From Gaiellaceae bacterium (GTDB lineage Bacteria; Actinomycetota; Thermoleophilia; Gaiellales; Gaiellaceae): a DNA stretch of 49,665 bases. The stretch spans positions 1 through 49,665 of the forward strand of contig JBARRS010000116.1 of the NCBI GenBank assembly GCA_049644345.1, in the 5' to 3' direction. The position numbers and the translations under genes were made by a program. Positions 10,641 through 42,103 of the stretch are shown piece after piece (position 1 is the first letter of the stretch; each line of letters starts with the position of its first letter). Under the pieces are notes generated by a model. It had not been told where the DNA came from. It searched no databases and was given only the letters and a program-made list of their open reading frames with translations.

Positions 10641-12659
10641 GTGAGCCACGACACGGACAAGCTCATCCGGCAGCTCTCCTTGGTCGCGTTCCTCATGGCC
10701 GAGCGCCGGCCCGTCACCGCGCGCGACATCAAGGGCAGCGTTGAGGGCTACCAGGAGATGTCCGACGAGGCGTTCGCCCGGCGCTTCTATTCAGACCGGG
10801 CGGAACTGCACGCGCTGGGCGTCCCGCTCGCGTCCCAGCGCGACGAGTACACCGGCGAGGAGCTGTACACGATGCTCTCGGAGCGCTACTTCCTGCCAGA
10901 GCTCGAGCTGGAGGACGACGAGCTCGCGGCACTCCAGACCGCGCTCTACCTGCTCGAGGGCAAGTTCGCCTACGCGGAGCCGCTTCGGCTCGCGCTCCAG
11001 AACCTCGCCTTGGGCCGGCCTGGCTTCGCGGAGGCGCCGACCGACACCGCGGTGCGCGTCGAGGTGCTCGACCCCGACTACTCGCCCGAGCTCGCAGGCC
11101 GGCTGGGGAAGCTCGAGACGGCGATCTCGAAGCAGCGAACGGTCAAGTTCACGTATTGGTCGATTGCGCGGGACGAGACCGAGGAGCGGACGCTCAACCC
11201 GTACGCGCTCTTCCAGGACAACGGCGCCTGGTACGTCGTCGGCCACGACCTCGACCGCGACGACATGCGCACGTTCCGCGTCTCACGCATCCGTGGCGAG
11301 ATCCGCTTCGCAACCCGGCGCGAGCGCGATTTCCGGCTGCCGCCCGAGTTCGAGATCGACCCCTACCGGGGCCGCCCGCCGTGGCAGATCGGCGAGCTCG
11401 TAGGCGAGGCGCGGATCGAGGTCGCGGGCGACACCGCCTGGTGGGTCCAGCGCACCTACGGGCACCGCGGCCGGCTCGAGGACGGCGTCTTCGTCACCGA
11501 GTACGCGAACCTGGGCCAGCTCGCGGCATGGATCCTCCGCCAGGAGGGACGCGCGGTCCCGCAGGCGCCGCCAGAGCTGCGCCGTGAGGTCGCAGACGGC
11601 CTCGTGCGCGTGCGCGAGCGCCACGAGGGCGAGCCGCCGAAGCTGGCGAAGGAGGCGAAGCCCGAGCCGGAGGAGGACGCCGAGCGTCCCGCGGGCCCGG
11701 TCGCCCCGGAGCGCTTTGCCGTGCTCCAGGCCCTCCTCGCCTACCTGCTCGCCCGCTGCGGCGACCAGACGGAGGCGGTGATCGAGGCAAGAGAGCTCGT
11801 CGAGCGCTTCAACATCCCGTCCGACCAGCTCGAGGAGCACTTGTCACTGCTCAACCTCGTCAACTTCGGCGGCGGCTGTTACGCCGTCTACGCGGAGCTC
11901 GACGACGGGCAGGTGCGGGTCGACAAGGAGCTCTTCGGCGACACCTTCCGCGCTCCGCCGCGGCTGACGCCCCTCGAGGCGCGGGCGATCCGGCTGGCGC
12001 TCGAGTTCGTCGGGCCGATGATCGCCGCAGACGCACGCACTCCGCTCGAGCGCGTGCGGCGGAAGCTCGAGGAGACGTTCGGCGAGTTCGAGCTCGTCCA
12101 GACCCCCGAGCCTCACGTCCGGCCCGCCGAGGAGCAGCTGATCCGGACGCTCAGCGACGGGACTCGACAGCACCGTCTCGTCGAGCTCGAGTACCTGAAG
12201 GAGGCGGAGGAAGCCCCGACCGTACACCTGGTCGAGCCGTACGCGCTCGAGCGCCGCCTGCCGTACTGGTACGTCCACACCTGGGACCGAACGCGCGACG
12301 GAGAACGCTCGTTTCGCCTCGATCGGATGCGGAGCGCGCGCCTCCAGCGACAGCGGTTCGAGCCGCGTGAAGGATTTCACCCCGGCGAGCTGCACAGCGC
12401 GATAACCGCAACGATCTGGTACGACGCGGACGTCGCCCGCTGGGAGGTCGAGCGGGGCGCCCGCCCGCTCGCGGACGGCGCCGCGGTCGCCGAACGGGCG
12501 GTCGGAAGCATCGAATGGCTCGAGGGCGAGATCCTCGCGCACCGCGGGCACGCGGTCGTGGTCGAGCCCCAGGAGCTGCGAAAGCGGATTGCCGGACGGG
12601 CGCGCTCGCTCCGGCGTGAGCTGAAGCTCGCTAGGCCTCGGCCGGCAGCGAGAGCGTGA
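10641..12659 (+). CDS. pafBC: fused PafB-PafC type transcriptional regulator (two HTH-WYL-WCX modules)
   Basis: 672 aa, GTG start. Module 1: wHTH (LIRQLSLVAFLMAERRPVTARDI) and WYL (VKFTYWSIARDETEERTLNPYALFQDNGAWYVVGHDLDRDDMRTFRVSRI). Module 2: HTH (FAVLQALLAYLLA...) and WYL (LVELEYLKEAEEAPTVHLVEPYALERRLPYWYVHTWDRTRDGERSFRLDRM). Confidence 0.85.
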   Translation: MSHDTDKLIRQLSLVAFLMAERRPVTARDIKGSVEGYQEMSDEAFARRFYSDRAELHALGVPLASQRDEYTGEELYTMLSERYFLPELELEDDELAALQTALYLLEGKFAYAEPLRLALQNLALGRPGFAEAPTDTAVRVEVLDPDYSPELAGRLGKLETAISKQRTVKFTYWSIARDETEERTLNPYALFQDNGAWYVVGHDLDRDDMRTFRVSRIRGEIRFATRRERDFRLPPEFEIDPYRGRPPWQIGELVGEARIEVAGDTAWWVQRTYGHRGRLEDGVFVTEYANLGQLAAWILRQEGRAVPQAPPELRREVADGLVRVRERHEGEPPKLAKEAKPEPEEDAERPAGPVAPERFAVLQALLAYLLARCGDQTEAVIEARELVERFNIPSDQLEEHLSLLNLVNFGGGCYAVYAELDDGQVRVDKELFGDTFRAPPRLTPLEARAIRLALEFVGPMIAADARTPLERVRRKLEETFGEFELVQTPEPHVRPAEEQLIRTLSDGTRQHRLVELEYLKEAEEAPTVHLVEPYALERRLPYWYVHTWDRTRDGERSFRLDRMRSARLQRQRFEPREGFHPGELHSAITATIWYDADVARWEVERGARPLADGAAVAERAVGSIEWLEGEILAHRGHAVVVEPQELRKRIAGRARSLRRELKLARPRPAARA

Positions 12660-16535: not shown

Positions 16536-18191
16536 TCAGCGAGGTGAGGAACGATCGCGGGCTCGCGGAGCTACCGTGAGTCGCGCCTCGACGACTGCCT
16601 GCCCGGCGGCGTGCGCGGCTCTATGTCCGGTGACCGCGGCTAAGAAGTCGTCACGTTCCAGTGCATACAGGTGCGAGTCGACCAGGGCCCTGACAGTTGC
16701 TGTCCGCGGCACGTCCCGGAGCAGCGCGATCTCGCCGAAGTAGTCTCCTTGCTGCGCGGTCGCATGTGGGCCGTCCGCCACGATCTCCAGCTCGCCGTCG
16801 CCGACGATGTAGAAGCGATCTCCGGCATCACCCGCGCGAATCACAAGCTGGCCGGCGGCGACAGAGACGGGGATGAGGCTGGCGGCCACTCGTTCCTTGG
16901 CGGCGACCGATAGCGGTTCGAACATCGGTACTCGCTCGATGAGCTCGAGCTCTGGGCCGGGCGGGGAGACCGTCCTGTCTATCTCGACGAGCCGCCGGTA
17001 GGTCATCAGCGTCAGCAGCGGCAGGATCGCCCCGACGACGACGAAAGCCGGACGCGCTCCGAGGCCCGCGACGATCGCCGGCGCCGCGATCGAGCCGAGC
17101 GCCACGGCGCCCATCACGCAACCCCAGAGAAGGCCGAGGACGCGGGTCAAAAGGTGATCGGGAATGATCCGCTGGAGCAGCGTGAAGGCAGCGACATCCT
17201 CGACGCTGTTGGCAGCACCGACAACGGCGAGGAAGAGGGCGGCTGTCGCCAGGTACGGCCAGGGGGCGACGAGTGCGATCGGCCCACCCCAGAACACGAG
17301 CGCAAGGCCGAATGGGACGGCGAGTCGTCGGCCTTCAAGCGTCATCGCCCCGAGCGCTCCGATCAGACCGCCGACGCCGAGCGCCGCGGTCAGGTAGCCG
17401 ACCGCGCCCGGTCCTGCGTGGAGAATGCGGAAGACGGCGACCACGATGAGGACGTTCAGGCAGCCGCGGACAAACGCCTGAGCGACCATCAGCCCGATGA
17501 CCAGACGAGGTTTTGGTGCCCGCGCGACGGCCCGAAACCCAGCCGAGATCATTCGCCGAGTGCTCTCGCCGCCGGCCGCAGTGAGGTGAACGCGACCCTC
17601 GACCCTGACGCCCGCGAGGAGCGATGCGGCCGCCAGCAACGCCCCGGCTCCGACGGCGAAAACGAGCCCGACATCGGCGACAGCGATGAGCACCCCCGCG
17701 AGCAGCGGCCCAACGAGAGTGCCAAGACTTTCGATCGTCGACGTTGCACCGTTCGCTGCAATCAGTTCCTCAGGAGTTCGTGCCAGTGAGGGCAGGAGCG
17801 CCTGCAGCGCAGGTCTGACGAGCGTCGACGCGAGCCCGACTACGCTGGCGAGCGCGAACACGAAAACGTCGCTCTTGCCCGCAAAGAACGCCGCCGCTGA
17901 GCCGGCAAGGGCGGCCGACCCGACCAACGTGACCGCAAGGAGGAAACGCTCGCGGCGGAATCGGTCGCCCAGCGACGCTGCAAACGGCGCCACAATCGCC
18001 GCCGGCAACAAGCGCACGAGTCCCGCGATCCCAACGGCTGAGGTGCCGCCTGCCTCGAACGCGAAGATGCCGAGGGCGACGAAGTGCGCCCACTCGGCGG
18101 CAATCGCAGCGCCCCACGCGAGCTCGACGCGCCGGACGTTCGGGTTACGAAAAGCGGCGCCTAGAGTCGAGACCGCGCGAGCGGAACGCAT
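16536..18191 (-). CDS. MFS transporter fused to a C-terminal cyclic-nucleotide-binding domain
   Basis: 551 aa. About 12 hydrophobic helices (residues ~20-400). Then VPMFEPLSVAAKERVAASL...GQLVIRAGDAGDRFYIVGDGELEI...GDYFGEIALLRDVPRTATVRA, which is the cNMP-binding beta-barrel signature (FGE...RTA). Confidence 0.85.
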   Translation of the reverse strand: MRSARAVSTLGAAFRNPNVRRVELAWGAAIAAEWAHFVALGIFAFEAGGTSAVGIAGLVRLLPAAIVAPFAASLGDRFRRERFLLAVTLVGSAALAGSAAAFFAGKSDVFVFALASVVGLASTLVRPALQALLPSLARTPEELIAANGATSTIESLGTLVGPLLAGVLIAVADVGLVFAVGAGALLAAASLLAGVRVEGRVHLTAAGGESTRRMISAGFRAVARAPKPRLVIGLMVAQAFVRGCLNVLIVVAVFRILHAGPGAVGYLTAALGVGGLIGALGAMTLEGRRLAVPFGLALVFWGGPIALVAPWPYLATAALFLAVVGAANSVEDVAAFTLLQRIIPDHLLTRVLGLLWGCVMGAVALGSIAAPAIVAGLGARPAFVVVGAILPLLTLMTYRRLVEIDRTVSPPGPELELIERVPMFEPLSVAAKERVAASLIPVSVAAGQLVIRAGDAGDRFYIVGDGELEIVADGPHATAQQGDYFGEIALLRDVPRTATVRALVDSHLYALERDDFLAAVTGHRAAHAAGQAVVEARLTVAPRARDRSSPR

Positions 18192-18312
18192 TGGGCACCG
18201 ATTGAACCCCAGTTCTCCGCCTCGTACAAGCGCGCAGCAAGGAGAGACAGGCCGACTCTCGTAGCGACAGACGTCCTACCTCAGCCGGCGCGGGATTGAG
18301 GCTCAGGAACCG

Positions 18313-18612
18313 CTATCCAAAACCAAGAATGAACTTGGCGTCTTCGGACATCTTTTCCGGCGACCAGGGCGGATCCCAGGTCAGCTCGGTCTCGACGTCC
18401 TCGACCCCGGGCAGGGCGCGGACGACCTCGTCCACGTTCGCCTGGATCAGCGGCCCGACCGGGCAGCCCATCGATGTGAGCGTGTGGATCACCTTCACGC
18501 GCGGGCCGTCGACCTCCACGTCGTAGAGCAGGCCGAGCTCGACGATGTCCATCCCGAGCTCCGGGTCCTCGACCTGGCGCAGCGCCTCCATGACGTCCTC
18601 GCGGGTAGCCAC
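18313..18612 (-). CDS. DUF59 / SufT-like metal-sulfur cluster assembly factor
   Basis: Track ORF 18313..18678 trimmed to GTG at 18612, 10 nt after the glpX stop (an alternative ATG is at 18591). VMEALRQVEDPELGMDIVELGLLY...TLTSMGCPVGPLI is the DUF59 signature. Confidence 0.75.
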   Translation of the reverse strand: MATREDVMEALRQVEDPELGMDIVELGLLYDVEVDGPRVKVIHTLTSMGCPVGPLIQANVDEVVRALPGVEDVETELTWDPPWSPEKMSEDAKFILGFG

Positions 18613-18622
18613 GCGCTCGATG

Positions 18623-19636
18623 CTAGCCGAGGAGGCGCACTTCCTCGCGACGCTCCCTCGCGAAGAAGTGGATCCCATCGACGAATCGGACCCAGTTGCA
18701 GCGCGTGCACATCACGAGCGAATGCGTGCGCGCCGAGTCGGCGAGGAAGCGAACGCCCCTGAGCAGGTCGCCGTTCGATACCCCGGTCGCCACTGCGATC
18801 ATCTCGCCCGGCGCAAGCTCCTCGGTCGTGAACACCTTGTTTGCATCCTCGATGCCGGCTTCGTGTGCCTGCTCGATCTCGAGGCGCGAGGTCGGCCACA
18901 GCTGCGCCTGAATCTCGCCGCCCAGACAGCGCAGCGCGGCGGCCGACATCACAGCCTGCCGGGTGCCCCCGATCCCGATCGCGAGGTGATCGTTCGTCCC
19001 GCGGATCGCGGCGGAGATCGACGCCGTGACGTCGCCGTCCTGGATCAGCTTGATCCGGGCTCCCGCAACGCGGATCTCCTCGATCAGGTCGTGGTGACGA
19101 GGCCGGTCGAGGACGATCGTCGTCACGTCGTTCGGCATGCGCCCGAACGCCTCCGCGATCGCGCGGATGTTGTCGTTGATCGGCTTCGTGAGATCGATCG
19201 AGCCCCGCGCGCGCGGACCGACGGCCATCTTCCGCATGTACATGTCCGGCAGGGCCTGGAACGAGCCGGGCTCGCCGACCGCGACCATCGACATCGCGCC
19301 GTGACCGCCGCGTGCGACGACGCCGCTGCCTTCGATGGGGTCCAGCGCGAGATCGAAGCGCGTTCCACCGGTCCCGATCGTCTTTCCGATCGCGAGCGCC
19401 TCCGTCTCGTCGCTCGATCCGACCACGATCCGTCCGTCGATCGGCAGCTGCTCGAGCGCGACGCGCATCCCCGTCGTGGCCGCCTCCTCCGCCCCCTCCT
19501 GATCTGCGCGCCCGAGCCAGCGCGCGCCGGCGAGCGACGCCCGCTCGGTCACACGGGCGAAGCTCTCGCAGAGGCAGTACTGCCGTGCTGCGACGGGCTG
19601 CTGCTGCTGCTGGATCTCCTCCGCCGTCTCCGTCAT
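18623..19636 (-). CDS. glpX: class II fructose-1,6-bisphosphatase
   Basis: 337 aa. Collinear with E. coli GlpX from memory: RVTERASLAGARWLGR, DPIEGS, PDMYMRKMAVGP, RPRHHDLIEEIR, QDGDVTASI, IGIGGTRQAVMSAAALRCLGG. The ATG overlaps the upstream stop (ATGA). Confidence 0.92.
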   Translation of the reverse strand: MTETAEEIQQQQQPVAARQYCLCESFARVTERASLAGARWLGRADQEGAEEAATTGMRVALEQLPIDGRIVVGSSDETEALAIGKTIGTGGTRFDLALDPIEGSGVVARGGHGAMSMVAVGEPGSFQALPDMYMRKMAVGPRARGSIDLTKPINDNIRAIAEAFGRMPNDVTTIVLDRPRHHDLIEEIRVAGARIKLIQDGDVTASISAAIRGTNDHLAIGIGGTRQAVMSAAALRCLGGEIQAQLWPTSRLEIEQAHEAGIEDANKVFTTEELAPGEMIAVATGVSNGDLLRGVRFLADSARTHSLVMCTRCNWVRFVDGIHFFARERREEVRLLG

Positions 19637-20547
19637 CCGCCGACCACCTCGACTTGCGCAGCGCTTTCGAGCACGAGCTCCATCGCCTGGCCGATCGCCT
19701 CTTCGATGTTTCCGTTCTCGATCACGGGTACACCCGCCCTTCGCGCGCGCTCGACGATGAAGTCCTGCACGAGGCGGATATTGCCGAGCGAGTCGAGGTA
19801 GCGCTCGAACGGGCGTACGCCGGCCGAGGCGCGGTCACGGATCCAGAAGTGGCTCGCGTGCGCTTCGAGATCGCGTATCGCGAGCACGAACTGAACGACG
19901 AGCGCGCCCTCGATCGCGGGCGGCACCATCCCCGGCACGAGGTGAACGCCCTCGAGCACCATCGACCAGCCCTCCTCGAGCGCGCGGTCGATCGCCGCAT
20001 CGACGCCGACGAGCACGTTCCGCGTCTGGTCGAGGAACCCGTGCAGGACCGGGTCGCCCGGCTCGCCCGTCTCGAGCGCAGCCCGTCCGGCCTCGAAGCT
20101 CGAGTAGTGAATCGAGGGCATGAAGTCCTTCGAGAAGAACGCACGCATGGTCTGGCGGACGAAGTCCGTCGAGGTGACGCGCGTGATCCCGAGCCGGTAC
20201 GCGATCTCGGTGGCCACCGTCGACTTGCCGGTGCCGGTCGCGCCGCCGACGAGCAGGATGATGGGCAGGTCGAGGTCGGCGATCCGGCGATGGAGGCGGA
20301 GCCGGCGTGCGACCTGGCCACCCTCGTCTTCGCCGAGAATTCTTGCAGCGAGCTCCTCGAGGCGCTCGAGGCTCAGCGTCGAGCGGCCGCTCTCGTTCAG
20401 GTCCGCCTCCGCGGCGATTGCCAGCTCGTACGAGCGCTCCGAGGGAACACCGGTCGCGATCAGGGCGCGTGCGAGCAGGCCCTTCGAGAAGGGCAGCCCG
20501 TCCTCGCCGCCGAGCGGCAGCGGCTCGCGATGGCGGCGCTCGGTCAC
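19633..20547 (-). CDS. pgk2: 2-phosphoglycerate kinase-like protein
   Basis: 304 aa. P-loop ILLVGGATGTGKSTVATEIAYRLGITRVTSTDFVRQTMR. The N-terminal ATP-cone-like region and overall layout match archaeal 2PGK as I remember it. The GTG at 20547 overlaps the upstream stop (GTGA). The stop overlaps the glpX ATG. Confidence 0.8.
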   Translation of the reverse strand: MTERRHREPLPLGGEDGLPFSKGLLARALIATGVPSERSYELAIAAEADLNESGRSTLSLERLEELAARILGEDEGGQVARRLRLHRRIADLDLPIILLVGGATGTGKSTVATEIAYRLGITRVTSTDFVRQTMRAFFSKDFMPSIHYSSFEAGRAALETGEPGDPVLHGFLDQTRNVLVGVDAAIDRALEEGWSMVLEGVHLVPGMVPPAIEGALVVQFVLAIRDLEAHASHFWIRDRASAGVRPFERYLDSLGNIRLVQDFIVERARRAGVPVIENGNIEEAIGQAMELVLESAAQVEVVGG

Positions 20548-21800
20548 GACGCGACCCTCTCCGCCGTCAGCGTCCGCAGCTGATCGTCGAGATCCGCCCC
20601 CGGTAGGGGCAGGACCTCGTTGTCCGCGAAGACGACGTCGAGCCCCCGGGCGGCAGCCGCTTCAGCGACGACGTCGATAGCCGCCGCTTTGATCTCGACG
20701 AGGTAGACGTCCACGTCGAGCCCTTCGAGCTCCGCCTCGAGCACGTCGCGCCGGGCGAGGTTGCCGGAGACGTGGACGACATCGGCTCCGTACTGCTCCC
20801 GCAGGTGCCGTTCGAGCAGCGGCAGCGCCTCGGGAGACGCAGTCGAGAAGTAAGCGACGCGACGCCCACCGATCGCACCGAGCGGCCGCGGCCGTAAGAC
20901 GACGGGCACGACCGGCAGGTCCTTGACCTCGCGCACCGCGGCGGCCACCCGCTCGTGCGGCGTCCCTTCCTCCGCCATCGTCAGCACCACGAGGTCGGAG
21001 ATCAGGATCCGATATGCGTTGAGGTAGCCGGTAACGAGCTCGGGCGCCTGGCTCGCCCCCGCGACGAGCACGCGAGCGCCCGTGGCGACGGGCGGGATCG
21101 CGGCTCCGCTCCCGTCGAGAACGACGAGATCGGGCGAGAGATCGAGCGCGAGCGCGAGGCCCGCGCCCACGTTGGAGACCGCCGGCGCGCCCGCGAGGCC
21201 GCCGCCGCAACGCGTGCAGCCGATCGTCGGAACGCCCGCGAGCGCCGCGGTCTCGAGGTGATCCGACGCAGCGTGCCGACCGTCGCGGGAGAGCTCGAGC
21301 AGCCGCTCGAGCGTCGGCGGCAACTCGACGAGCTCGGGCTCAGGCGGCCCGCCCCGCCCCATCGCGACCACGACCACACGCCGCTCTTCGCCGAGCAGAC
21401 GCGCGATGTGTCCGGTGAGCGCGGTCTTGCCGATCCGCTTCCCGGTCCCGATCACGCCGATCGAGGGGATCGGGCACGGCAGAAACTCGGGCGCGTCGAG
21501 GCGGAAGTCCGCGCCGACGTACGGCACGCCGGCGGCGAGCACGCTGCTTGCGAGCCGGAAGCGCCGCACAGGCCCGAGCACGGGCTCGTCGGAGAGATCG
21601 ACGACGACCTCCGGCTCGAGCTCCGCAAGCGCCGTCTCGAGGTCGGCGGCGAGCGGGACGCCGTAATCCGCGCCCGGCCGCAGCTTCTCCGTCCCGCCGA
21701 CGAGCAGCGCGCCGACGAACTCGTACGGGAGCTCCTCGAGCGCCGCACGCACGACCGGCGCGTAGTGCTCCCCGTCGATCAACGCCAAAGCTCGAGTCAT
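20544..21800 (-). CDS. cpgS: cyclic 2,3-diphosphoglycerate synthetase-like protein
   Basis: Track ORF 20544..22472 trimmed to ATG at 21800 (MTRALALIDGEHYAPVV...), which overlaps the upstream TGA (ATGA). Blocks LIDGEHY.PV, GGTEKL, DLSDEPVL, RFRLAS, GTGKRIGKTA (P-loop) and VVAMGRGGPPEPE match my recollection of Methanothermus fervidus CpgS. Confidence 0.8.
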   Translation of the reverse strand: MTRALALIDGEHYAPVVRAALEELPYEFVGALLVGGTEKLRPGADYGVPLAADLETALAELEPEVVVDLSDEPVLGPVRRFRLASSVLAAGVPYVGADFRLDAPEFLPCPIPSIGVIGTGKRIGKTALTGHIARLLGEERRVVVVAMGRGGPPEPELVELPPTLERLLELSRDGRHAASDHLETAALAGVPTIGCTRCGGGLAGAPAVSNVGAGLALALDLSPDLVVLDGSGAAIPPVATGARVLVAGASQAPELVTGYLNAYRILISDLVVLTMAEEGTPHERVAAAVREVKDLPVVPVVLRPRPLGAIGGRRVAYFSTASPEALPLLERHLREQYGADVVHVSGNLARRDVLEAELEGLDVDVYLVEIKAAAIDVVAEAAAARGLDVVFADNEVLPLPGADLDDQLRTLTAERVAS

Positions 21801-22603
21801 GACGACCGCGCCCGCACCTCGCCCTCGATCCGCGCCGTGTACTTCTCGTACGCGCGCGTCTCGATCGAGAACTGGATGATCCGCTCCTGCCCGTAGAACG
21901 GATACTTGCGCCAGACGTCCACGTGACGGTCGGTGATCTCGATCACGTTGTAACAGGGCCGCGTCCTCCCACGCAGGCGCTGAGACGAGACGGTGCCGGC
22001 ATTGACGACGAAGAGGTCCTCGAGCCGCCAGGCGTAGGGCACGTGCTTGTGGCCGGAGAGAACGAGGTCGACGCCGGCGCGCTGGAGGCACTCGATCGCA
22101 TCGCCCGCGTCGTAGACGACGTTGCGCTCGCGGCCCGTCCCCGGCACCGGCAGCAGGTGGTGATGGAGGACGAAGACCTTGAGATCGGCGGGTTCCGCGA
22201 ACTGCTCCTCGATCCAGCGGTAGCGGCCGCGCCCGATCACGCCGTGGTCGAGGTCGGGCTCGGTGGAATCGACCGCGACGACGGTGACCCCGCCCACACG
22301 AAGCACTCGGTTCCGCTCCCCGAACATGTCCTCGAAATGGACATAGCCGACGTTGCGCGAGTCGTGGTTGCCCGGAATGACGACGATCGAGGCGCATGCG
22401 ATCCGATCGAGATACTGCTTCGCGAGCGCGTACTCGTGCTTGTAGCCGAACGTCGTCAGATCCCCCGAGCACACGACGATGTCGGGGCCCATGTCGTTGA
22501 TCTCGTTGATCGCCCGTTCCATCAGGCCCGCCACGAAGTACGGCCCCCCGCAGTGGAGGTCGGAGATGTGGGCAATCGTGAACTCGCCGTTCGCCGCGGC
22601 CAT
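21797..22603 (-). CDS. calcineurin-like metallophosphoesterase
   Basis: 268 aa. Motifs ISDLHCG, CSGDLT, GNHD, VLHHHL, SGHKHV (the DxH / GD / GNHD / H / GH pattern). Lies 23 nt downstream of the PiT stop. The TGA overlaps the cpgS-like ATG. Confidence 0.85.
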   Translation of the reverse strand: MAAANGEFTIAHISDLHCGGPYFVAGLMERAINEINDMGPDIVVCSGDLTTFGYKHEYALAKQYLDRIACASIVVIPGNHDSRNVGYVHFEDMFGERNRVLRVGGVTVVAVDSTEPDLDHGVIGRGRYRWIEEQFAEPADLKVFVLHHHLLPVPGTGRERNVVYDAGDAIECLQRAGVDLVLSGHKHVPYAWRLEDLFVVNAGTVSSQRLRGRTRPCYNVIEITDRHVDVWRKYPFYGQERIIQFSIETRAYEKYTARIEGEVRARSS

Positions 22604-22626
22604 GCTCGAAGTCTAGAGCGGCCTCG

Positions 22627-23610
22627 CTAGAAGACGGCCACGACGGGCCAGTAGAACGCCGCCGCGACGAGAGCCGCGGCGGGCAGAGTCAGCAGCCACG
22701 CCACGACGATGTTTCCTGCCACGCCCCAGCGTACGGCCGAGAGGCGCTTCGTCGCGCCCGCACCTATCACCGCGCCGGAGACGACGTGGGTCGTCGAGAG
22801 CGGGTAACCGAAGTGCGTTGCGACGTAGATCGTCGCTCCCCCCGCCGCCTGCGCGGCAAATCCGCTCGCCGGCTCTATGCTGAATACACGCTGGCCCACC
22901 GTCCGCATGATCCGCCAGCCGCCGACGTACGTGCCAGCCCCGATCGAGATGCCGGCCGCGACCTTGACCCAGGTCGGGATGTAGAAGGTGTGGATGTGGC
23001 CGCTCTCGAAGAGTGCGAGCGCGATTACACCCATCGTCTTCTGCGCGTCGTTCGCTCCGTGGGTGAACGCGACCCACGTGCCGGAGAGCAGCTGCCCGAG
23101 CCGGAAAGTCCGGTTGCCGACGCCCGGCGTCATCCACTGAAAGAGCCAGTAGATGACGAGCAGAAGTGTGAACGCGACGAGAAACGCGGCGACCGGGGCG
23201 ATGCCTGCCGGTATCAGCACGTTGTGTGTGACGCCGTGCCATTTCACGCCCTTCGAACCCGACTGCACGAGCGCCGCTCCGATCAGACCGCCGATCAGCG
23301 CATGCGAGGAACTCGACGGCAGCCCGAGCCACCATGTGAGCAGGTTCCAGACGATTGCGCCGATCAGCGCCGCCAGCACCGTCTTTTCGTTCGCCAGGCC
23401 GGTGTCGATGATCCCCTTGCCCACGGTTTTCGCGACCGCCGTCGTCACGAATGCGCCGCCGAGATTCGCAACTGCCGCGACGAGGACGGCCAGCCGCGGC
23501 GAGACGGCCCGGGTCGAGACGGAGGTCGCGACGGCGTTCGCAGTGTCGTGGAAGCCGTTGGTGAAGTCGAAGAAGAGCGCGACCGCGACGACGGTCCAGA
23601 GCAGGATCAC
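22627..23610 (-). CDS. PiT-family inorganic phosphate transporter
   Basis: 327 aa, GTG start. FDFTNGFHDTANAVATSV and FTHGANDAQKTMG are the duplicated PHO4/PiT signatures. Polytopic membrane protein. Confidence 0.92.
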   Translation of the reverse strand: MILLWTVVAVALFFDFTNGFHDTANAVATSVSTRAVSPRLAVLVAAVANLGGAFVTTAVAKTVGKGIIDTGLANEKTVLAALIGAIVWNLLTWWLGLPSSSSHALIGGLIGAALVQSGSKGVKWHGVTHNVLIPAGIAPVAAFLVAFTLLLVIYWLFQWMTPGVGNRTFRLGQLLSGTWVAFTHGANDAQKTMGVIALALFESGHIHTFYIPTWVKVAAGISIGAGTYVGGWRIMRTVGQRVFSIEPASGFAAQAAGGATIYVATHFGYPLSTTHVVSGAVIGAGATKRLSAVRWGVAGNIVVAWLLTLPAAALVAAAFYWPVVAVF

Positions 23611-23613
23611 GGC

Positions 23614-24234
23614 CTACCGGTTCTTGACGAGGATCGCCTCGAGTACATCGGCGGCGTTCTCGAGGGCATCGACCGCCTCCTCGAGCCGCTCGTGGATGTC
23701 CTTCCAGCGTACGAGCGAGATTGCGTCGCGTTCGGTCTGGAAGAGTTCGCCGACGGCATCGCGGACTAGCCGGTCGCCTTCGTCCTCGAGCGCGCGCAAC
23801 TGGTTCAGCTGCTGGCTTGAGTCGCGGAAACCCTCGAGGCGGCACACCGCCTCGTCGAGCTTCGTTGCCGCGCTCATGATCACCTGGGCCTGCTCGCGCG
23901 CCTTGTCGGGTACGCGGCGCGCACCGTAGACACCGAGATTGTCGGCCGCCTCGTCGATGTTGTCGCAGATGTCGTCGATCGCCCCGGCGAGGCGGTACAT
24001 GTCGTCGCGATCGAAGGGCGTCACGAACGTTCTGTTGAGCAGGTCGACCACCTCGTGCGTCAGCCGGTCACCTTCGTGCTCGCACTGCTTGATCCGCGCG
24101 ATCAGCTCGGTGCCGTCCGGAAACCGCTCGAGCAGCTCGACGAGTAGGCGCGAGACCTCGACGACGTTCGCCGAGGCCTGCGCGTAGAGGTCGAAGAACT
24201 CGCCTTTTTGGGGCGTGAGCCTGACGCGGACCAC
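23614..24234 (-). CDS. DUF47 (PhoU-like) Pit accessory protein
   Basis: 206 aa. All-helical, EGDRLTHEVVDLLNRTFVTPFDRDDMYRLAGAIDDICDNIDEAA pattern typical of the DUF47/TIGR00153 partner of PiT. Its stop lies 3 nt before the PiT start. Confidence 0.85.
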   Translation of the reverse strand: MVRVRLTPQKGEFFDLYAQASANVVEVSRLLVELLERFPDGTELIARIKQCEHEGDRLTHEVVDLLNRTFVTPFDRDDMYRLAGAIDDICDNIDEAADNLGVYGARRVPDKAREQAQVIMSAATKLDEAVCRLEGFRDSSQQLNQLRALEDEGDRLVRDAVGELFQTERDAISLVRWKDIHERLEEAVDALENAADVLEAILVKNR

Positions 24235-24299
24235 CTGCGCGCGGTCGTATATCAGGTCTCAATCCAGGCCGCGTCCGCCGTCGCTGCTACCGTGTTGGC

Positions 24300-24668
24300 G
24301 TGGCGGTGGAAACACCCGTTTTCCAGGCATATCGGGGCGAGTCCCCGCCGCGGTTCGCGAACCTCGCGGAGCTCGAGTGCGCGAAGATCCTCGACTACCA
24401 CGGCGTCCCGTGGGCGTACGAGCCGCGGACGTTCGCGCTCGAGGAGGACGAGCACGGCCGCGTCACCGAGGCCTTCACGCCCGACTTCTACCTGCCCGAG
24501 CAGGATCTCTACCTCGAGATCACGGTGATGCGGCAGCCGCTCGTCACGCGTAAGAACCGCAAGCTGCGCAAGCTGCGCGAGCGCTATCCCGAGATCCAGA
24601 TCAAGCTCTTCTACAAGCGCGATATCGCGCGCCTCGCGCAGCGCTACCGGCTCGACCTGGCCTCGTGA
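24300..24668 (+). CDS. hypothetical protein, translationally coupled to hpt (possible PD-(D/E)xK-like core)
   Basis: 122 aa, GTG start. FTPDFYLPEQDLYLEITVMRQ followed by a basic helix KNRKLRKLRERYPEIQIKLFYKRD. The stop overlaps the hpt GTG (GTGA). The nuclease-fold idea is weak inference. Confidence 0.55.
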   Translation: MAVETPVFQAYRGESPPRFANLAELECAKILDYHGVPWAYEPRTFALEEDEHGRVTEAFTPDFYLPEQDLYLEITVMRQPLVTRKNRKLRKLRERYPEIQIKLFYKRDIARLAQRYRLDLAS

Positions 24669-25198
24669 GCCAAGATCCGGTCGGCGCTGTCTACCTCAGC
24701 GCCGAGGAGATCGAAGCGCGGGTCTGCGAGCTTGGCCATGAGATCGCCGCCGACTACGCGGGCCGGCCGCTGCTGCTCGTTGCGCTGCTGAAAGGGAGCT
24801 TCGTCTTCCTTGCCGATCTCTCGCGAGCGATCCGGATTCCGCACGAGCTGGACTTCGTCGAGCTCGCAGGCTACGGCGGCGCCTCGACGGGCGGGCACGC
24901 GAGCATCCGGCTGCTCAAGGACCTTGTGCTCACCGCCCAAGACCGCGATCTGCTGCTCGTCGAGGACATCGTCGACACGGGGCTGACGCTCAACTACCTC
25001 CGGAACCTGATGCTCCTGCGCAAGCCGCGTTCGCTGGCGATCGCGACGCTGCTCGACCGCCCGTATCGGCGACTCGTCGAGGACCTGCCGGTTCGCTACG
25101 TCGGGTTCACCGTCCCGGACGAGTACTTCGTCGGCTACGGGTTCGACCTGAACGAGCGCTACCGCAACTTGCCCGATCTGCGCCTCGCACAGGTTTAG
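24665..25198 (+). CDS. hpt: hypoxanthine-guanine phosphoribosyltransferase
   Basis: 177 aa. PRPP-binding motif LLLVEDIVDTGLTLNYL, LLKGSFVFLADL, FVVGYGFDLNERYRNLPD. Classic Hpt. Confidence 0.9.
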   Translation: MSQDPVGAVYLSAEEIEARVCELGHEIAADYAGRPLLLVALLKGSFVFLADLSRAIRIPHELDFVELAGYGGASTGGHASIRLLKDLVLTAQDRDLLLVEDIVDTGLTLNYLRNLMLLRKPRSLAIATLLDRPYRRLVEDLPVRYVGFTVPDEYFVGYGFDLNERYRNLPDLRLAQV

Positions 25199-29186: not shown

Positions 29187-30035
29187 ATGAGCGAGCTTCG
29201 GTTTGGACCGGCACGCGTGCCTTCGCGCGAGAGTCCGGCGGCAGCCGTCGACCTCCTCGTCGAGCGCGGTTACACGGCCTGCGAGATCGACTTCGCGAGT
29301 GGGTTCTGGATGGAGTACCCATGGGCCCAGGAGTTCGGCAAGCTCGCACGTCGTCGGCGAATCGCCCTGTCCGTCCACGCGCCGATCGCAGGTTTCATGG
29401 GGCATGTCGAGCGCGACAAGAAGCACGCGATGGCGGTCGGGATGCTCGATCACTCCGCCGGGATCGCCAAGGTCGCCGGGGCCGAGCCGGTCGTCTTCCA
29501 CCCGGGGTTCCTGCTAGGCCGCACCCGCAAGCGCGCACTTGCCCAGGTGGTCGAGCAGCTCGCCGATCTCCGGGCGCGGCTGGAGGCGAAGGATCGCGCG
29601 GTCCCCTTCGGCGTCGAGGTCATGGGCCGCGTGCAGGAGCTCGGAAGCCTCGAGGATGTCCTCCACATCTCGGAGCGCCTGCGCTGGGTGCGGCCCGTCA
29701 TCGACTTCGCGCACCTCCACGCGGTGACCGACGGCGCGTTCACGACGACCAAGGCGTTTCGCGACGCGCTCTCGGCCGCCAACAAGGTTCTGCCCCGGGC
29801 GGCACCGTTCCACATACACATCTCGGATATCGCCTACGCGAACAGGAATGAGACGCGGCACCTGCCGTACGGCGAAGGCACGCTTCGAGTCGAGCCTCTA
29901 GGCAAGGCGCTCTCCCGCTTCGCGCGTCCGGCGACGGTGATCAGCGAGTCGCCGGACGAGGAGTCGCATCAAGCGATCCGGGCGGCGCTCCTCTCGGCCG
30001 GTGCCGGCGTCAGCTCCGCGAGCCGGCGCTCGTAG
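29187..30035 (+). CDS. xylose-isomerase-like TIM-barrel protein (AP endonuclease family 2 / endonuclease IV-like)
   Basis: 282 aa. Metal-ligand-like pattern SVHAP, VFHPG, GVEVMG, IDFAHLH, FHIHISD, HLPYGEG. The last 67 nt overlap the convergent cyclase gene. Confidence 0.7.
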   Translation: MSELRFGPARVPSRESPAAAVDLLVERGYTACEIDFASGFWMEYPWAQEFGKLARRRRIALSVHAPIAGFMGHVERDKKHAMAVGMLDHSAGIAKVAGAEPVVFHPGFLLGRTRKRALAQVVEQLADLRARLEAKDRAVPFGVEVMGRVQELGSLEDVLHISERLRWVRPVIDFAHLHAVTDGAFTTTKAFRDALSAANKVLPRAAPFHIHISDIAYANRNETRHLPYGEGTLRVEPLGKALSRFARPATVISESPDEESHQAIRAALLSAGAGVSSASRRS

Positions 30036-39862: not shown

Positions 39863-42070
39863 CTAAGACGGCGTAACGCGGTAGGCGTCGAAAACCGCGT
39901 CGACGTTGCGCAGGGCCGTCAACAGCGCGCGCAGCGACTTCACGTCCCCCACCTCGGCGACGTACCAGTTCTTCGCCATCTGGTCCTCGACGTGACCGCC
40001 GTACTCGACGATGTTCGCGCCGTGCTCGGCGAACGTCCGCGCCACGTCCTCGAGCAGGCGCGGACGGTCCCACGAGTCGACCGCGATCTGAACCCGGAAG
40101 CTCTGCGTCGCGCCCCCGTCCCACTCGACCGGAGTGAACCGCTCCGGGTTGCGCTGGAGTGCCTTCACGTTCGTGCAGTCGCCGCGGTGGATCGTGATCC
40201 CCTTGCCGAGCGAGATGTAGCCGACGATCTCGTCGCCGGGAACCGGCGTGCAGCACCGTGCCAGGCGCACGAGGACGTCCTCGACGCCCGCGACCCGGAT
40301 CCCGAGCGTGTCGCCCGCGACTGCGTGCCGCGCCTTCGGAGCCTTCGGGACGGCCTCCTCCTCGGCGACCTCCGCCGTCTTCAGGCCCTGGAGCACCTTC
40401 TTGACGATCTGCGAGGCGGCAAGCTTGCCGGAGCCGAGCGCGACGTAGAAGTCCTCCGCCTTCTTGAAACCGGTCTCGCGGATCACCTGCGCGAGCAGCG
40501 GCGAGCCGGCGAGCTTCTTGTAGGGCAGCTTCTGCTTCTTCAGCGCTTCCTCGAGCGCGTCGCGACCCTTTTTCTCCGTCTCCTCGCGCGTCTCGCGCGA
40601 GAACCACTGGCGAATCTTGTTCCTCGCCCGTGAGGAGGCCGCCAGCGACAGCCAGTCGCGAGAGGGGCCGCGGCCCGACTTGGAGGTCAGGATCTCGACC
40701 CGGTCGCCGCTCTTCAGCCTGTAGTGGAGCGGAACGATCCGACCGTTCACCTTCGCGCCGACGGTGCGGTGACCGACGTCCGTGTGGACCGCGTAGGCGA
40801 AGTCGATCGGCGTCGCGTTCAGCGGAAGCGTCTTCAGCTCGCCTTTCGGGGTGAAGACGAAGACCTCCTCGTCGAAGAACTCGCGTTGCGAGGTGCGCCA
40901 GAACTCGCGCGCGTCGTCCTCGTCCTTGTGGATGTCCATCAGGTGCTTGACCCACTCGGCCCAGCGCTCGTCGATCTTGCCGCCGCGACCGGGCTTGTAG
41001 ACCCAGTGCATCTGGGCTGCGATCCCGTACTCGGCGAGGTCGTGCATCTCGCGGGTCCGCACCTGGATCTCGAGCGGCACGCCGCCCGGCCCGATCACGG
41101 TCGTGTGCAGGGCGCGATAGCCGTTCACCTTCGGCATCGCGATGTAGTCCTTGAACCGGCCGGGCATCGGCTTCCAGAGCGAGTGGATGAGGCCGAGCGC
41201 GCCGTAGCAGTCGCGCGTGCCCTCGTCGCCGAAGCGCTCGACGATCACGCGCATCGCCGTGAGGTCGTAGATCTCGTTGAACTCGCGGCCCTTCTTCGCC
41301 ATCTTGTCGTAGATCGAGTAGAAGTGCTTCGCACGGCCGGAGATGTCGGCCGGAATGTCGACCTTGTCGAGCTCCGCCTGCAGGACGACGGCCGCTTCGT
41401 TGACACGTTCTTCCCGCTCGACGCGGCGCTCGGCGACCATCGCCGTGATCTCGTCGTACTTGCGGGGGTGCAGTCGCTCGAAGGCGAGGTCTTCGAGCTC
41501 CCACTTGAGCTTGTGAATTCCGAGCCGGTGGGCGAGCGGCGCGTACACCTCGAGCGTCTCCTTCGCCTTCTGGAGCTGCTTCTGCTTGCCGAGGTACTCG
41601 ATCGTCCGCATGTTGTGGAGGCGGTCGGCGAGCTTGATCAGGATCACGTCCTTGTTCTGCGCCATCGCGACGATCATCTTCCGGTAGTTCTCGGCCTCCG
41701 CCTGCTCGCGGCTCTGGAACCGGATCCGGGTCAGCTTCGTCACGCCTTCGACCAGCTGCGCGACCTCGTCCCCGAACTCCTCGCGCACCTCGTCGATCTC
41801 GGATTCGGTGTCCTCGACCACGTCGTGGAGCAGCGCGGCGGCGATCGCCTGCTCGTCGAGGCGAAGCTCGGCACAGATCTTCGCGACGCCCCATGGGTGC
41901 TGGATGAAGTCCTCGCCTGAGCGACGCTGCTGGCCCTCGTGGGCGCGCGCCGCGAACCGGAAGGCCCGCGCCAGCAGGTCCCGGTCGACGTCGGGCTTGT
42001 AGGCGACAACGTCGGCCAGCAGCTCTTCGAGCAGCTCTTGATGCTTTTCGGGAGCCTGGAGGACGGTCAC
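39863..42070 (-). CDS. rel: bifunctional (p)ppGpp synthetase/hydrolase
   Basis: 735 aa, GTG start. HD hydrolase (HPWGVAKI..., LLHDVVEDT), synthetase (YRALHTTVIG, LEIQVRTREMH), TGS (VFVFTPKGE), ACT-like C-terminus. Confidence 0.95.
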   Translation of the reverse strand: MTVLQAPEKHQELLEELLADVVAYKPDVDRDLLARAFRFAARAHEGQQRRSGEDFIQHPWGVAKICAELRLDEQAIAAALLHDVVEDTESEIDEVREEFGDEVAQLVEGVTKLTRIRFQSREQAEAENYRKMIVAMAQNKDVILIKLADRLHNMRTIEYLGKQKQLQKAKETLEVYAPLAHRLGIHKLKWELEDLAFERLHPRKYDEITAMVAERRVEREERVNEAAVVLQAELDKVDIPADISGRAKHFYSIYDKMAKKGREFNEIYDLTAMRVIVERFGDEGTRDCYGALGLIHSLWKPMPGRFKDYIAMPKVNGYRALHTTVIGPGGVPLEIQVRTREMHDLAEYGIAAQMHWVYKPGRGGKIDERWAEWVKHLMDIHKDEDDAREFWRTSQREFFDEEVFVFTPKGELKTLPLNATPIDFAYAVHTDVGHRTVGAKVNGRIVPLHYRLKSGDRVEILTSKSGRGPSRDWLSLAASSRARNKIRQWFSRETREETEKKGRDALEEALKKQKLPYKKLAGSPLLAQVIRETGFKKAEDFYVALGSGKLAASQIVKKVLQGLKTAEVAEEEAVPKAPKARHAVAGDTLGIRVAGVEDVLVRLARCCTPVPGDEIVGYISLGKGITIHRGDCTNVKALQRNPERFTPVEWDGGATQSFRVQIAVDSWDRPRLLEDVARTFAEHGANIVEYGGHVEDQMAKNWYVAEVGDVKSLRALLTALRNVDAVFDAYRVTPS

Positions 42071-42103
42071 ACTGAAAGTGTAGACCCGGCCTCTGTCGCC
42101 AAC

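What the first reader, a model, noticed from the sequence alone, without database searches (positions are those of the whole stretch)
19633..21800. Bacterial gene pair for the archaeal solute cyclic 2,3-diphosphoglycerate (2PGK-like + cDPG synthetase-like)
Two translationally coupled genes (GTGA overlap at 20544-20547) look like the two dedicated enzymes of cDPG biosynthesis.

- The upstream protein carries blocks I remember from Methanothermus fervidus CpgS: LIDGEHYxPV, GGTEKL, DLSDEPVL, RFRLAS, P-loop GTGKRIGKTA, VVAMGRGGPPEPE.
- The downstream protein has the 2-phosphoglycerate kinase P-loop region: GGATGTGKSTVA..RLGI..V.STD..R..MR.

Established knowledge: 2PG is converted to 2,3-DPG by 2PGK, then to cDPG by cDPGS. 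cDPG accumulates to very high levels as a thermoprotectant and phosphate/carbon store in hyperthermophilic and thermophilic methanogens. To my knowledge, production has been shown biochemically only in archaea. A functional copy in a high-GC Gram-positive-type bacterium would extend the pathway's phylogenetic and physiological range.
Basis: partly seen in the sequence, partly recalled or inferred. Interest (0 to 1): 0.8.

Follow-up and report, generated by a model that had tools for sequence, protein, structure and literature searches.

The report
Bacterial cDPG synthesis gene pair
A soil-type actinobacterium (order Gaiellales) carries intact, operon-linked copies of the two enzymes that heat-loving methanogens use to make cyclic 2,3-diphosphoglycerate; databases already name the genes, but the solute has not been reported from any bacterium in the literature I could search.

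Summary
On the minus strand, a 418-aa gene (20544-21800) and a 304-aa gene (19633-20547) overlap by GTGA.

[quoted passage not shown] The PDB match has E=5e-85, with 43% identity over 394 residues. Eleven of the 12 published ligand-contacting residues are identical. The AlphaFold model superposes on 8ORU at TM 0.94.
- **Second gene.** It matches both NCBIfam 2-phosphoglycerate kinase (2PGK) models end to end, but below their curated cut-offs.
- **Distribution.** The window is Gaiellales-like. At least 557 stretches in the species-representative genome collection encode cDPGS relatives. The pair is also adjacent in other Actinomycetota, another bacterium and Thermococcus.
- **Wider operon.** The run of genes is PhoU_div–Pit–metallophosphoesterase–cDPGS–2PGK–GlpX–FeS protein. 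The metallophosphoesterase–cDPGS–2PGK triad was present in all 82 Gaiellales-type loci, allowing for two loci that are cut inside or before 2PGK.
- **Novelty.** JGI names both genes and NCBI names the synthetase, so this is a new bacterial member of a known kind, not a new system. No paper in the held library reports cDPG or these genes in bacteria, and a 2023 paper calls cDPG exclusive to hyperthermophilic methanogens.

Function in a bacterium remains inferred. The linked phosphoesterase is a speculative candidate for cDPG turnover.

The parts
20544..21800 (-). cDPGS-like gene (cyclic 2,3-diphosphoglycerate synthetase homologue), 418 aa. The ATG start overlaps the stop of the upstream phosphoesterase gene (ATGA).
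   Evidence: - PDB phmmer: 8ORU/8ORK E=5e-85, residues 4-397 against 6-431.
- 42.6% identity over 394 positions, with E45, K46, K145, R146, K149, T150, D208, E305, T353, E404 and K406 all identical.
- AlphaFold pLDDT 96.9. Foldseek best hit 8ORU, TM 0.94, rmsd 2.0 A; the next fold, LpxK, has TM 0.48.
- Precomputed Pfam PF27272 CpgS_N on the window's own protein.
19633..20547 (-). 2PGK-like gene (2-phosphoglycerate kinase homologue), 304 aa. It has an N-terminal ATP-cone-like region plus a P-loop kinase domain. The GTG start overlaps the cDPGS stop (GTGA).
   Evidence: - NCBIfam PRK04220: E=2e-82, residues 17-298 against profile 14-294 of 306, 277 bits (cut-off 343). PRK12337: 285 bits (cut-off 603).
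- 38 invariant columns along the whole length among 10 cDPGS-linked kinases from bacteria and Thermococcus.
- All 10 match the two 2PGK models far better than the related models.
- No PDB relative beyond the P-loop.
21797..22603 (-). Calcineurin-type metallophosphoesterase (MPE), 268 aa, no signal peptide evident. It lies immediately upstream of cDPGS and is translationally coupled to it. Candidate turnover enzyme (hypothesis).
   Evidence: - Pfam Metallophos E=3e-21.
- Nearest solved structures are Rv0805 (E=4e-11) and the phosphohydrolase of 2zo9/2dxl (E about 2e-8).
- Adjacent to cDPGS in 82/82 Gaiellales-type loci and in 5 of 7 more distant bacterial loci.
- Invariant block LHHHL.PVPGTGRERN and seven invariant arginines.
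- Reverse test: 74 adjacent plus 4 nearby out of 83 informative contigs.
18623..19636 (-). Class II fructose-1,6-bisphosphatase GlpX, 337 aa. The ATG start overlaps the 2PGK stop (ATGA).
   Evidence: - Pfam FBPase_glpX E=2e-105.
- TIGR00330 281.7 bits, above the cut-off of 259.3.
- Present directly downstream of 2PGK in most, but not all, Gaiellales-type loci.
18313..18612 (-). Small Fe-S cluster assembly protein (DUF59/FeS_assembly_P). Probable GTG start at 18612, 11 nt after the GlpX stop. It is the last gene of the co-directional run.
   Evidence: Pfam FeS_assembly_P E=1e-21. Start position. Found downstream in nearly all related loci. Probably conserved synteny rather than pathway membership.
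22627..23610 (-). PitA-type inorganic phosphate transporter (PHO4 family), 327 aa, 23 nt upstream of the phosphoesterase gene.
   Evidence: Pfam PHO4 E=1e-92. Present at this position in only 6 of 82 related genome or assembly loci, and in about 10 metagenome contigs.
23614..24234 (-). PhoU_div/DUF47 protein, the usual partner of Pit. First gene of the co-directional run.
   Evidence: Pfam PhoU_div E=1e-24. Co-occurs with Pit in the same 6 loci.

Best explanation
The two genes are bacterial orthologues of the archaeal cDPG pathway enzymes.

Proposed mechanism:
1. The 304-aa kinase phosphorylates 2-phosphoglycerate with ATP to give 2,3-diphosphoglycerate.
2. The 418-aa synthetase works as a dimer whose N-terminal domain supplies E38/K39 to the partner's active site. 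It uses ATP to close the intramolecular phosphoanhydride, giving cyclic 2,3-diphosphoglycerate.

The genes are co-transcribed and translationally coupled. They sit in an operon that also carries a cytoplasmic metallophosphoesterase and the gluconeogenic FBPase GlpX. In this lineage the operon also carries a Pit phosphate transporter with its PhoU-like partner.

The host is a Gaiellales-type, probably mesophilic, actinobacterium. The product is therefore more likely a carbon/phosphate/energy reserve or an osmo-/desiccation protectant drawn from the gluconeogenic 2PG/3PG pool than a thermoprotectant.

Shown: homology, fold, conservation of catalytic residues, gene linkage and wide conservation. 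Inferred: the substrates, the product and the physiological role.
For: - **cDPGS homology.** End-to-end homology to the crystallised M. fervidus enzyme.
- **Ligand residues.** Eleven of the 12 ligand-binding residues named in PMC10690619 are identical here. They are also invariant or nearly so across 54 diverse family representatives. The 12th, P335, could not be placed (see evidence against).
- **Fold.** The AF2 model (pLDDT 96.9) superposes on the 2,3-DPG/ADP-bound structure at TM 0.94. This includes the N-terminal domain, which has no other structural relative (PMC10690619).
- **Kinase.** Its best full-length matches are the two 2PGK models. The cDPGS-linked kinases form a coherent group.
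- **Adjacency of the pair.** It recurs in unrelated surroundings:
  - Gaiellales (82 loci);
  - other Actinomycetota, between the thr genes and rho;
  - Acidimicrobiales;
  - a bacterium with the gene order reversed;
  - Thermococcus, with a 4-bp overlap.
- **Neighbouring genes.** They point to the 2PG/3PG node: GlpX here; apgM-type phosphoglycerate mutase in L084, L091 and L092; TAL/FSA in L084, L087 and L091; PPDK in L092. PMC1224877 describes cDPG synthesis as a branch of gluconeogenesis and cDPG as a carbon and phosphate store.
Against: - No biochemical or metabolite evidence exists for any bacterium. Six literature searches that bear on it found no report.
- The 2PGK-like protein is below both NCBIfam equivalog cut-offs.
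- The 2PGK family includes kinases with other substrates, such as mevalonate-3-phosphate 5-kinase.
- I could not compare the kinase directly with the characterised M. fervidus 2PGK sequence, and no 2PGK structure exists.
- Position P335 of the paper did not map in my reconstruction (F at 335), although the neighbouring RPxP motif is conserved.
- The physiological role is a guess. Pit/PhoU_div linkage is confined to close relatives (6 of 82 loci) and may be incidental.
Confidence: 0.78

Rival explanations
1. The same two enzyme folds act on different substrates in bacteria. The kinase would phosphorylate another small phospho-acid, and the synthetase would cyclise or ligate a different bisphosphate, so the product is not cDPG.
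For: - The kinase scores below NCBI's equivalog thresholds.
- Its family contains functionally diverged members, PRK12339 mevalonate-3-phosphate 5-kinase and PRK12338 'hypothetical'.
- Sequence identity to the archaeal proteins is only about 37-43%.
- The carriers are mesophiles, for which a hyperthermophile solute is unexpected (PMC6741124).
Against: - All residues that contact 2,3-DPG in 8ORU (E45, K46, K145, R146, and the Mg ligands T150 and D208) are identical.
- The kinase scores 277-285 bits on the 2PGK models against 86-128 bits on the diverged ones.
- Neighbours such as apgM, GlpX and PPDK fit a 2PG/3PG substrate pool.
Confidence: 0.12
2. The pathway stops functionally at 2,3-diphosphoglycerate, or cycles through it. 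The operon would serve to make or regulate 2,3-DPG, for example as a cofactor or regulator. Alternatively, the synthetase would run mainly in reverse to regenerate ATP, so cDPG never accumulates as a solute.
For: - M. fervidus cDPGS is reported to be reversible (PMC1224877).
- A phosphoesterase is tightly linked and could remove product.
- Nothing in the sequence indicates solute-level accumulation.
Against: - A dedicated ATP-consuming cyclase conserved in hundreds of species is hard to explain if its product has no role.
- The cDPGS and 2PGK genes are kept together in every lineage examined.
Confidence: 0.08
3. The genes are a non-functional or decaying relic of horizontal transfer from archaea.
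For: The family is shared between archaea and a restricted set of bacteria.
Against: - The reading frames are intact, codon usage matches the host (GC3 0.88) and the genes are translationally coupled.
- Catalytic residues are invariant across 54 representatives.
- The genes are conserved across at least 557 stretches in species-representative genomes, and the triad across all 82 related loci.
Confidence: 0.02

Closest known systems
Methanothermus fervidus cyclic 2,3-diphosphoglycerate synthetase (CpgS; PDB 8ORK/8ORU)
   Same: - Same two-domain architecture over the full length.
- Same Walker A motif, GTGKRIGKT.
- Eleven of the 12 published ligand-contacting residues are identical.
- The predicted fold superposes at TM 0.94.
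   Different: - 43% identity.
- About 40 residues shorter, because loops in the N-terminal domain and near residues 305-330 are trimmed.
- 70% GC bacterial gene in a probable mesophile.
- Embedded in an operon with a phosphoesterase and GlpX.
Thermococcales cDPGS-2PGK pair (T. paralvinellae locus L085; the related structure 9SXB)
   Same: Same gene order (synthetase, then kinase) with a 4-bp overlap. The kinase has the same ATP-cone-like N-terminus plus P-loop domain.
   Different: Archaeal and hyperthermophilic. No adjacent phosphoesterase. It lies next to a mannosylglycerate-synthase-type glycosyltransferase gene rather than gluconeogenic genes.
2-phosphoglycerate kinase family (NCBIfam PRK04220 / PRK12337; COG2074)
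   Same: End-to-end profile match covering both the N-terminal domain and the kinase core.
   Different: Scores 277 and 285 bits, below the curated equivalog cut-offs of 343 and 603. NCBI therefore leaves Gaiellaceae copies as 'hypothetical protein' while JGI names them 2PGK.
Class III cyclic-nucleotide phosphodiesterase-type metallophosphoesterases (Rv0805, GpdQ, SpdA, CpdA)
   Same: The linked 268-aa phosphoesterase has the full set of metal-binding motifs (DxH, GD, GNHD, HHH, GHxH). Its nearest solved or curated relatives are these enzymes.
   Different: The relationship is only distant (E about 1e-11). It has its own invariant block HHHL.PVPGTGRERN. No substrate is known. A sister clade sits next to CofC-like genes instead of cDPGS.

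Membership tests
cDPGS (CpgS) family | Full-length homology including the family-specific N-terminal domain, which has no structural relative outside the family | tested here: met
   - phmmer E=5e-85 over residues 4-397 of 418.
- Pfam PF27272 CpgS_N precomputed for the window's protein.
- Foldseek TM 0.94 to 8ORU against 0.48 for the next fold.
cDPGS (CpgS) family | Walker A GxxGxGK[T/S], and the 2,3-DPG/Mg/ADP ligands E45, K46, K145, R146, K149, T150, D208, E305, T353, E404 and K406 | tested here: met
   All eleven are identical, at window residues E38, K39, K121, R122, K125, T126, D180, E277, T320, E369 and K371. The paper's P335 could not be placed exactly; the adjacent RPxP motif is conserved.
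cDPGS (CpgS) family | Catalyses the ATP-dependent cyclisation of 2,3-DPG to cDPG | not testable with these tools
   Needs a recombinant enzyme assay.
2-phosphoglycerate kinase family | End-to-end match to the curated 2PGK profiles, not only the P-loop | tested here: met
   PRK04220: residues 17-298 against profile positions 14-294 of 306, E=2e-82. PRK12337: residues 15-296 against 182-470 of 492.
2-phosphoglycerate kinase family | Score above NCBIfam's curated equivalog cut-off | tested here: not met
   277 bits against a cut-off of 343, and 285 against 603. Family membership is clear, but strict functional equivalence is not certified by this criterion.
2-phosphoglycerate kinase family | Genomic linkage to cDPGS, as a functional-partner criterion | tested here: met
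   4-bp overlap here. Adjacent in every locus examined with enough sequence, in both bacteria and Thermococcus.
2-phosphoglycerate kinase family | Direct similarity to the biochemically characterised M. fervidus 2PGK, and activity on 2PG | not tested
Activity needs an assay.
cDPG-accumulating organisms | Detectable intracellular cDPG | not testable with these tools
   No report for bacteria in the held literature.
Calcineurin-like metallophosphoesterases | Metal-binding motifs DxH / GD / GNH[DE] / H / GHxH | tested here: met
   The motifs SDLH, SGDL, GNHD, HHH and GHKH are all present and invariant in 6 orthologues.

The most novel reading that the evidence does not exclude
cDPG, thought to be confined to hyperthermophilic methanogens, is a widespread metabolite of mesophilic soil and groundwater Actinomycetota (Gaiellales and relatives).

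In these bacteria the invariably co-transcribed metallophosphoesterase would be the long-missing cDPG hydrolase (or a 2,3-DPG phosphatase). It would return the solute to the 2PG/3PG pool. The operon would then be a complete make-and-break cycle for a phosphate/carbon/energy reserve. In some lineages this cycle is wired to Pit phosphate uptake.
Probability: 0.25. Interest if true: 0.75.

Novelty: new member of a known kind. Interest (0 to 1): 0.5.

Why it matters
- **The current view.** The extremolyte literature treats cDPG as a curiosity of a few hyperthermophilic methanogens and explains it by thermoprotection.
- **What would change.** Many Gaiellales species, and some other Actinomycetota, carry an intact pathway. 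If they really make cDPG, its physiological meaning has to be rethought as a phosphate/carbon/energy store or a desiccation protectant.
- **Soil phosphorus.** A new intracellular organic-phosphate pool would enter soil phosphorus budgets.
- **Biotechnology.** Mesophilic, high-GC enzymes would become available for cDPG production, which at present relies on the poorly expressed M. fervidus enzyme (PMC12136491).
- **The linked phosphoesterase.** It offers a concrete candidate for a cDPG-degrading enzyme. As far as I know (my own knowledge, not checked here), the gene for that enzyme has never been identified.

Tried and rejected
1. **Local Pfam and NCBIfam scans of the cDPGS-like protein.** They gave no hit. 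The family model PF27272 is newer than the local copies, so this is a library gap, not evidence against membership.
2. **Phylogeny to find the direction of inter-domain transfer.**
   - I built an NJ tree of 54 representatives plus M. fervidus, with 100 bootstraps.
   - Only shallow pairs were supported (window + P0241, 99%).
   - Archaeal and bacterial sequences interleave without support.
   - The result is inconclusive. No maximum-likelihood program was available.
3. **Confirming the genes in the cultured Gaiella occulta.** The genome paper does not mention them and holds no supplement text. A homologue search seeded with a Gaiella sp. MAG protein, and a cluster look-up, returned no entry named G. 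occulta. This is unresolved.
4. **Single-sequence AlphaFold of the phosphoesterase.** It gave pLDDT 44, which is unusable, so no fold search was run.
5. **Promoter/terminator scan of 17900-24700, and Rfam and tRNA scans of the whole window.** Nothing above background was found.
7. **The phosphoesterase as a dedicated cDPG enzyme.**
   - I considered this and downgraded it.
   - A sister clade with the same signature motif lies next to ABM/CofC-like/PIG-L genes or RNase E/G, with no cDPGS nearby.
8. **Matussek et al. 1998 (PMC107676).** The paper is not held.
Full report
**1. What is in the sequence**

The finding's coordinates hold two minus-strand genes.
- The upstream gene runs from ATG 21800 to the stop at 20544 (418 aa).
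- The downstream gene runs from GTG 20547 to the stop at 19633 (304 aa).
- They overlap by GTGA at 20544-20547.

The ORF listing also shows a 642-aa reading of the first gene. This is an artefact: in a 70% GC genome the open frame continues upstream into the neighbouring gene. The public gene call for this contig starts six codons later, at a TTG (P0001, 412 aa). An 85%-identical homologue (P0002, 418 aa) and the alignment to the archaeal enzyme both support the ATG.

**2. The first protein is a full-length cDPG synthetase homologue**

[quoted passage not shown] - 9SXB gives E=2e-81. 9SXB is a Thermococcales-type enzyme.
- I rebuilt the M. fervidus sequence from the printed alignment. Its numbering reproduces 11 of the 12 residues named in the structure paper (PMC10690619).
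- Pairwise identity is 42.6% over 394 positions.
- The following ligand residues are all identical in the window protein:
  - the 2,3-DPG ligands contributed by the partner subunit (E45, K46);
  - the P-loop residues K145, R146, K149 and T150;
  - the Mg ligand D208;
  - the nucleotide contacts E305, T353, E404 and K406.
- These residues are also invariant or nearly so in an alignment of 54 diverse representatives of the family.
- An AlphaFold2 model built on that alignment has mean pLDDT 96.9.

**3. The second protein is a 2-phosphoglycerate kinase family member**

- Pfam sees only weak P-loop hits.
- NCBIfam's two 2PGK models match end to end:
  - PRK04220, residues 17-298 against profile 14-294 of 306, E=2e-82, 277 bits;
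  - PRK12337, 285 bits.
- The related models for a hypothetical protein and for mevalonate-3-phosphate 5-kinase score 128 and 86 bits.
- Both 2PGK scores are below NCBI's curated equivalog cut-offs (343 and 603). This explains why NCBI labels the Gaiellaceae copies 'hypothetical protein' while JGI calls them 2-phosphoglycerate kinase.
- I aligned ten kinases that sit next to a cDPGS gene in different bacteria and in Thermococcus.
  - They share 38 invariant columns spread over the N-terminal (ATP-cone-like) region and the kinase core.
  - All ten match the two 2PGK models far better than the related models.
- No solved structure of this family exists.
- I could not obtain the characterised M. 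fervidus 2PGK sequence, so a direct comparison is missing.

**4. Who carries it**

- The closest proteins are from metagenomes and from MAGs named Gaiellaceae, Gaiellales, Thermoleophilia or Actinomycetota.
- The best species-representative genome is only 70-71% identical. The window therefore comes from a Gaiellales-like actinobacterium without a close sequenced representative.
- Its flanking genes match the synteny of Gaiellales contigs. These include Nramp, a phosphoribosyltransferase, an M23 peptidase, QueG and a PafBC-like WYL protein.
- The family is not rare:
  - more than 8000 clusters at 90% identity share words with the query;
  - 286 clusters at 50% identity reach E<1e-30;
  - at least 557 stretches in the GTDB species-representative collection encode a relative.
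- Named members outside Gaiellales include Acidimicrobiales, other Actinomycetota, Thermococcus and an Asgard archaeon.

**5. Gene neighbourhood**

- In the window, seven co-directional genes run as follows: PhoU_div (23614-24234), Pit (22627-23610), a calcineurin-type metallophosphoesterase (21797-22603), cDPGS, 2PGK, GlpX (18623-19636) and a small Fe-S assembly protein (18313-18612).
- Three successive junctions are 4-bp start/stop overlaps: ATGA, GTGA, ATGA.
- In 82 Gaiellales-type loci, phosphoesterase–cDPGS–2PGK is present in all; the kinase hit is absent in L024 and only partial in L041, the two loci that are cut there.
  - GlpX follows in roughly two thirds.
  - The Fe-S protein follows in nearly all.
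  - Pit/PhoU_div precede in only six, all close relatives.
- More distant bacterial loci keep the pair in quite different surroundings:
  - between the thr genes and rho-rpmE-prfA, again with the phosphoesterase in front, and with an apgM-type phosphoglycerate mutase and/or a transaldolase/FSA gene alongside (L084, L089, L091);
  - with the phosphoesterase visible at the cut contig end (L083, L087);
  - without it in an Acidimicrobiales locus (L090);
  - in reversed order, next to apgM and downstream of PPDK, in another bacterium (L092).
- In Thermococcus the pair has the same order and a 4-bp overlap, but no adjacent phosphoesterase.
- The recurring partners are GlpX, apgM, PPDK and TAL/FSA. 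All act around the triose-phosphate/2PG/3PG part of gluconeogenesis. This fits the textbook description of cDPG synthesis as a branch from 2PG (PMC1224877).

**6. The linked phosphoesterase**

- It has all metal-binding motifs. Its nearest solved relatives are Rv0805 (E=4e-11) and a phosphohydrolase I take to be GpdQ (2zo9/2dxl, E about 2e-8).
- It is better conserved than its neighbours: 51-64% identity in distant loci, against 41-52% for cDPGS and 37-43% for the kinase.
- It carries an invariant block, LHHHL.PVPGTGRERN, and seven invariant arginines.
- As a reverse test, I scanned metagenome contigs for that block.
  - Among 120 contigs, those whose phosphoesterase is at least 57% identical to the window's have cDPGS immediately downstream in 74 cases.
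  - In 4 cases cDPGS lies within 4 kb, and in 5 cases it is absent. Sixteen contigs were too short to judge.
  - The more divergent phosphoesterases (below 57%) are adjacent in only 4 cases and not in 11.
  - Those unlinked copies sit beside ABM, CofC-like guanylyltransferase and PIG-L genes, or RNase E/G.
- There is therefore a cDPGS-linked clade within a broader actinobacterial phosphoesterase subfamily.
- A role in cDPG or 2,3-DPG turnover is attractive. PMC1224877 records a cDPG hydrolase activity in M. thermautotrophicus, and to my knowledge no gene has been assigned to it. The role remains a hypothesis.
- A single-sequence structure prediction failed (pLDDT 44).

**7. Most likely mechanism**

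- The steps are 2PG + ATP to 2,3-DPG (kinase), then 2,3-DPG + ATP to cDPG + ADP + Pi (synthetase, by the two SN2 steps proposed in PMC10690619).
- The pathway would be fed from the gluconeogenic pool.
- Cultured Gaiella grows best at 35-37 C (PMC6741124). I therefore infer a storage or osmo-/desiccation-protective role rather than thermoprotection.
- The Pit/PhoU_div genes in this lineage hint at a phosphate connection, but this is weak evidence.

**8. Novelty**

- **Annotation.** JGI names both genes and NCBI names the synthetase, and a Pfam family exists for the synthetase's N-terminal domain. The homology itself is therefore not new.
- **Literature.**
  - Searches of the held literature found no report of cDPG, or of these genes, in bacteria.
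  - The 2023 structure paper states that cDPG is found exclusively in hyperthermophilic methanogens.
  - The G. occulta genome paper, from a compatible-solute laboratory, discusses solute genes without mentioning these.
  - Homologues outside methanogens have been noted before only in archaea: Pyrococcus yayanosii (PMC4890121) and Nitrosocaldus-type ammonia oxidisers (PMC7554672).
- **Verdict.** I classify this as a new bacterial member of a known kind, with moderate interest. The claim is sound at the sequence level, is widespread and is directly testable. It rests on already-annotated homology and lacks any biochemical support.

**9. Limits**

- Phylogeny was unresolved.
- Presence in the cultured type strain was not confirmed.
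- The kinase's substrate is inferred from family and linkage only.

Noticed in passing
L158:6001-8570, L204:3438-5172, L176:7061-8840, L098:1970-4482: A sister clade of the operon's metallophosphoesterase (50-54% identical, same HHHL.PVPGTGRERN block) is not next to cDPGS. It lies beside an ABM monooxygenase-like gene, a CofC/FbiD-like guanylyltransferase (F420 biosynthesis; from my own knowledge, its substrates are phosphorylated C3 acids) and a PIG-L deacetylase. Both contexts may involve phospho-C3 acids, which could hint at the phosphoesterase's chemistry.
   Followed up: partly
L084:1577-2752, L091:2691-3878, L092:6413-7747: An archaeal-type cofactor-independent phosphoglycerate mutase gene (Pfam Metalloenzyme + PhosphMutase) lies beside or near the cDPGS/2PGK pair in three independent bacterial contexts. 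This fits a supply of 2PG from 3PG.
   Followed up: partly
L085:4467-8171 (Thermococcus paralvinellae contig): The archaeal cDPGS-2PGK pair sits about 400 bp downstream of a mannosylglycerate-synthase-type glycosyltransferase (MGS_GT). This looks like a small compatible-solute gene island.
   Followed up: no
window 24300-24668 (+): A 122-aa gene with no Pfam hit is transcribed divergently from the operon and is followed by a phosphoribosyltransferase gene (24665-25198). The same small gene occupies the same position in L001 and L002, whether or not Pit/PhoU_div are present. Function unknown.
   Followed up: no
window 16536-18191 (-): An MFS transporter fused to a C-terminal cyclic-nucleotide-binding domain (551 aa) lies just downstream of the operon.
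   Followed up: no
window 29969-32932 (-): A 987-aa protein combines an adenylate/guanylate cyclase catalytic domain with an AAA_16 ATPase and MalT-like TPR repeats. Together with the cNMP-binding MFS protein and an Rv0805-like phosphoesterase, the window is rich in cyclic-nucleotide-related domains.
   Followed up: no
window 20544-22472 (-) and 21782: The mechanical ORF for cDPGS extends to 642 aa, through the upstream gene. The public gene call starts at a TTG six codons inside the gene (412 aa). The ATG at 21800, which forms an ATGA overlap with the upstream stop, is the better start.
   Followed up: yes
window 39863-43984 (-), 10641-12659 (+): Housekeeping genes typical of Actinomycetota are present: RelA/SpoT, RecJ and a PafBC-like double WYL regulator. 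They are consistent with the taxonomic placement.
   Followed up: no
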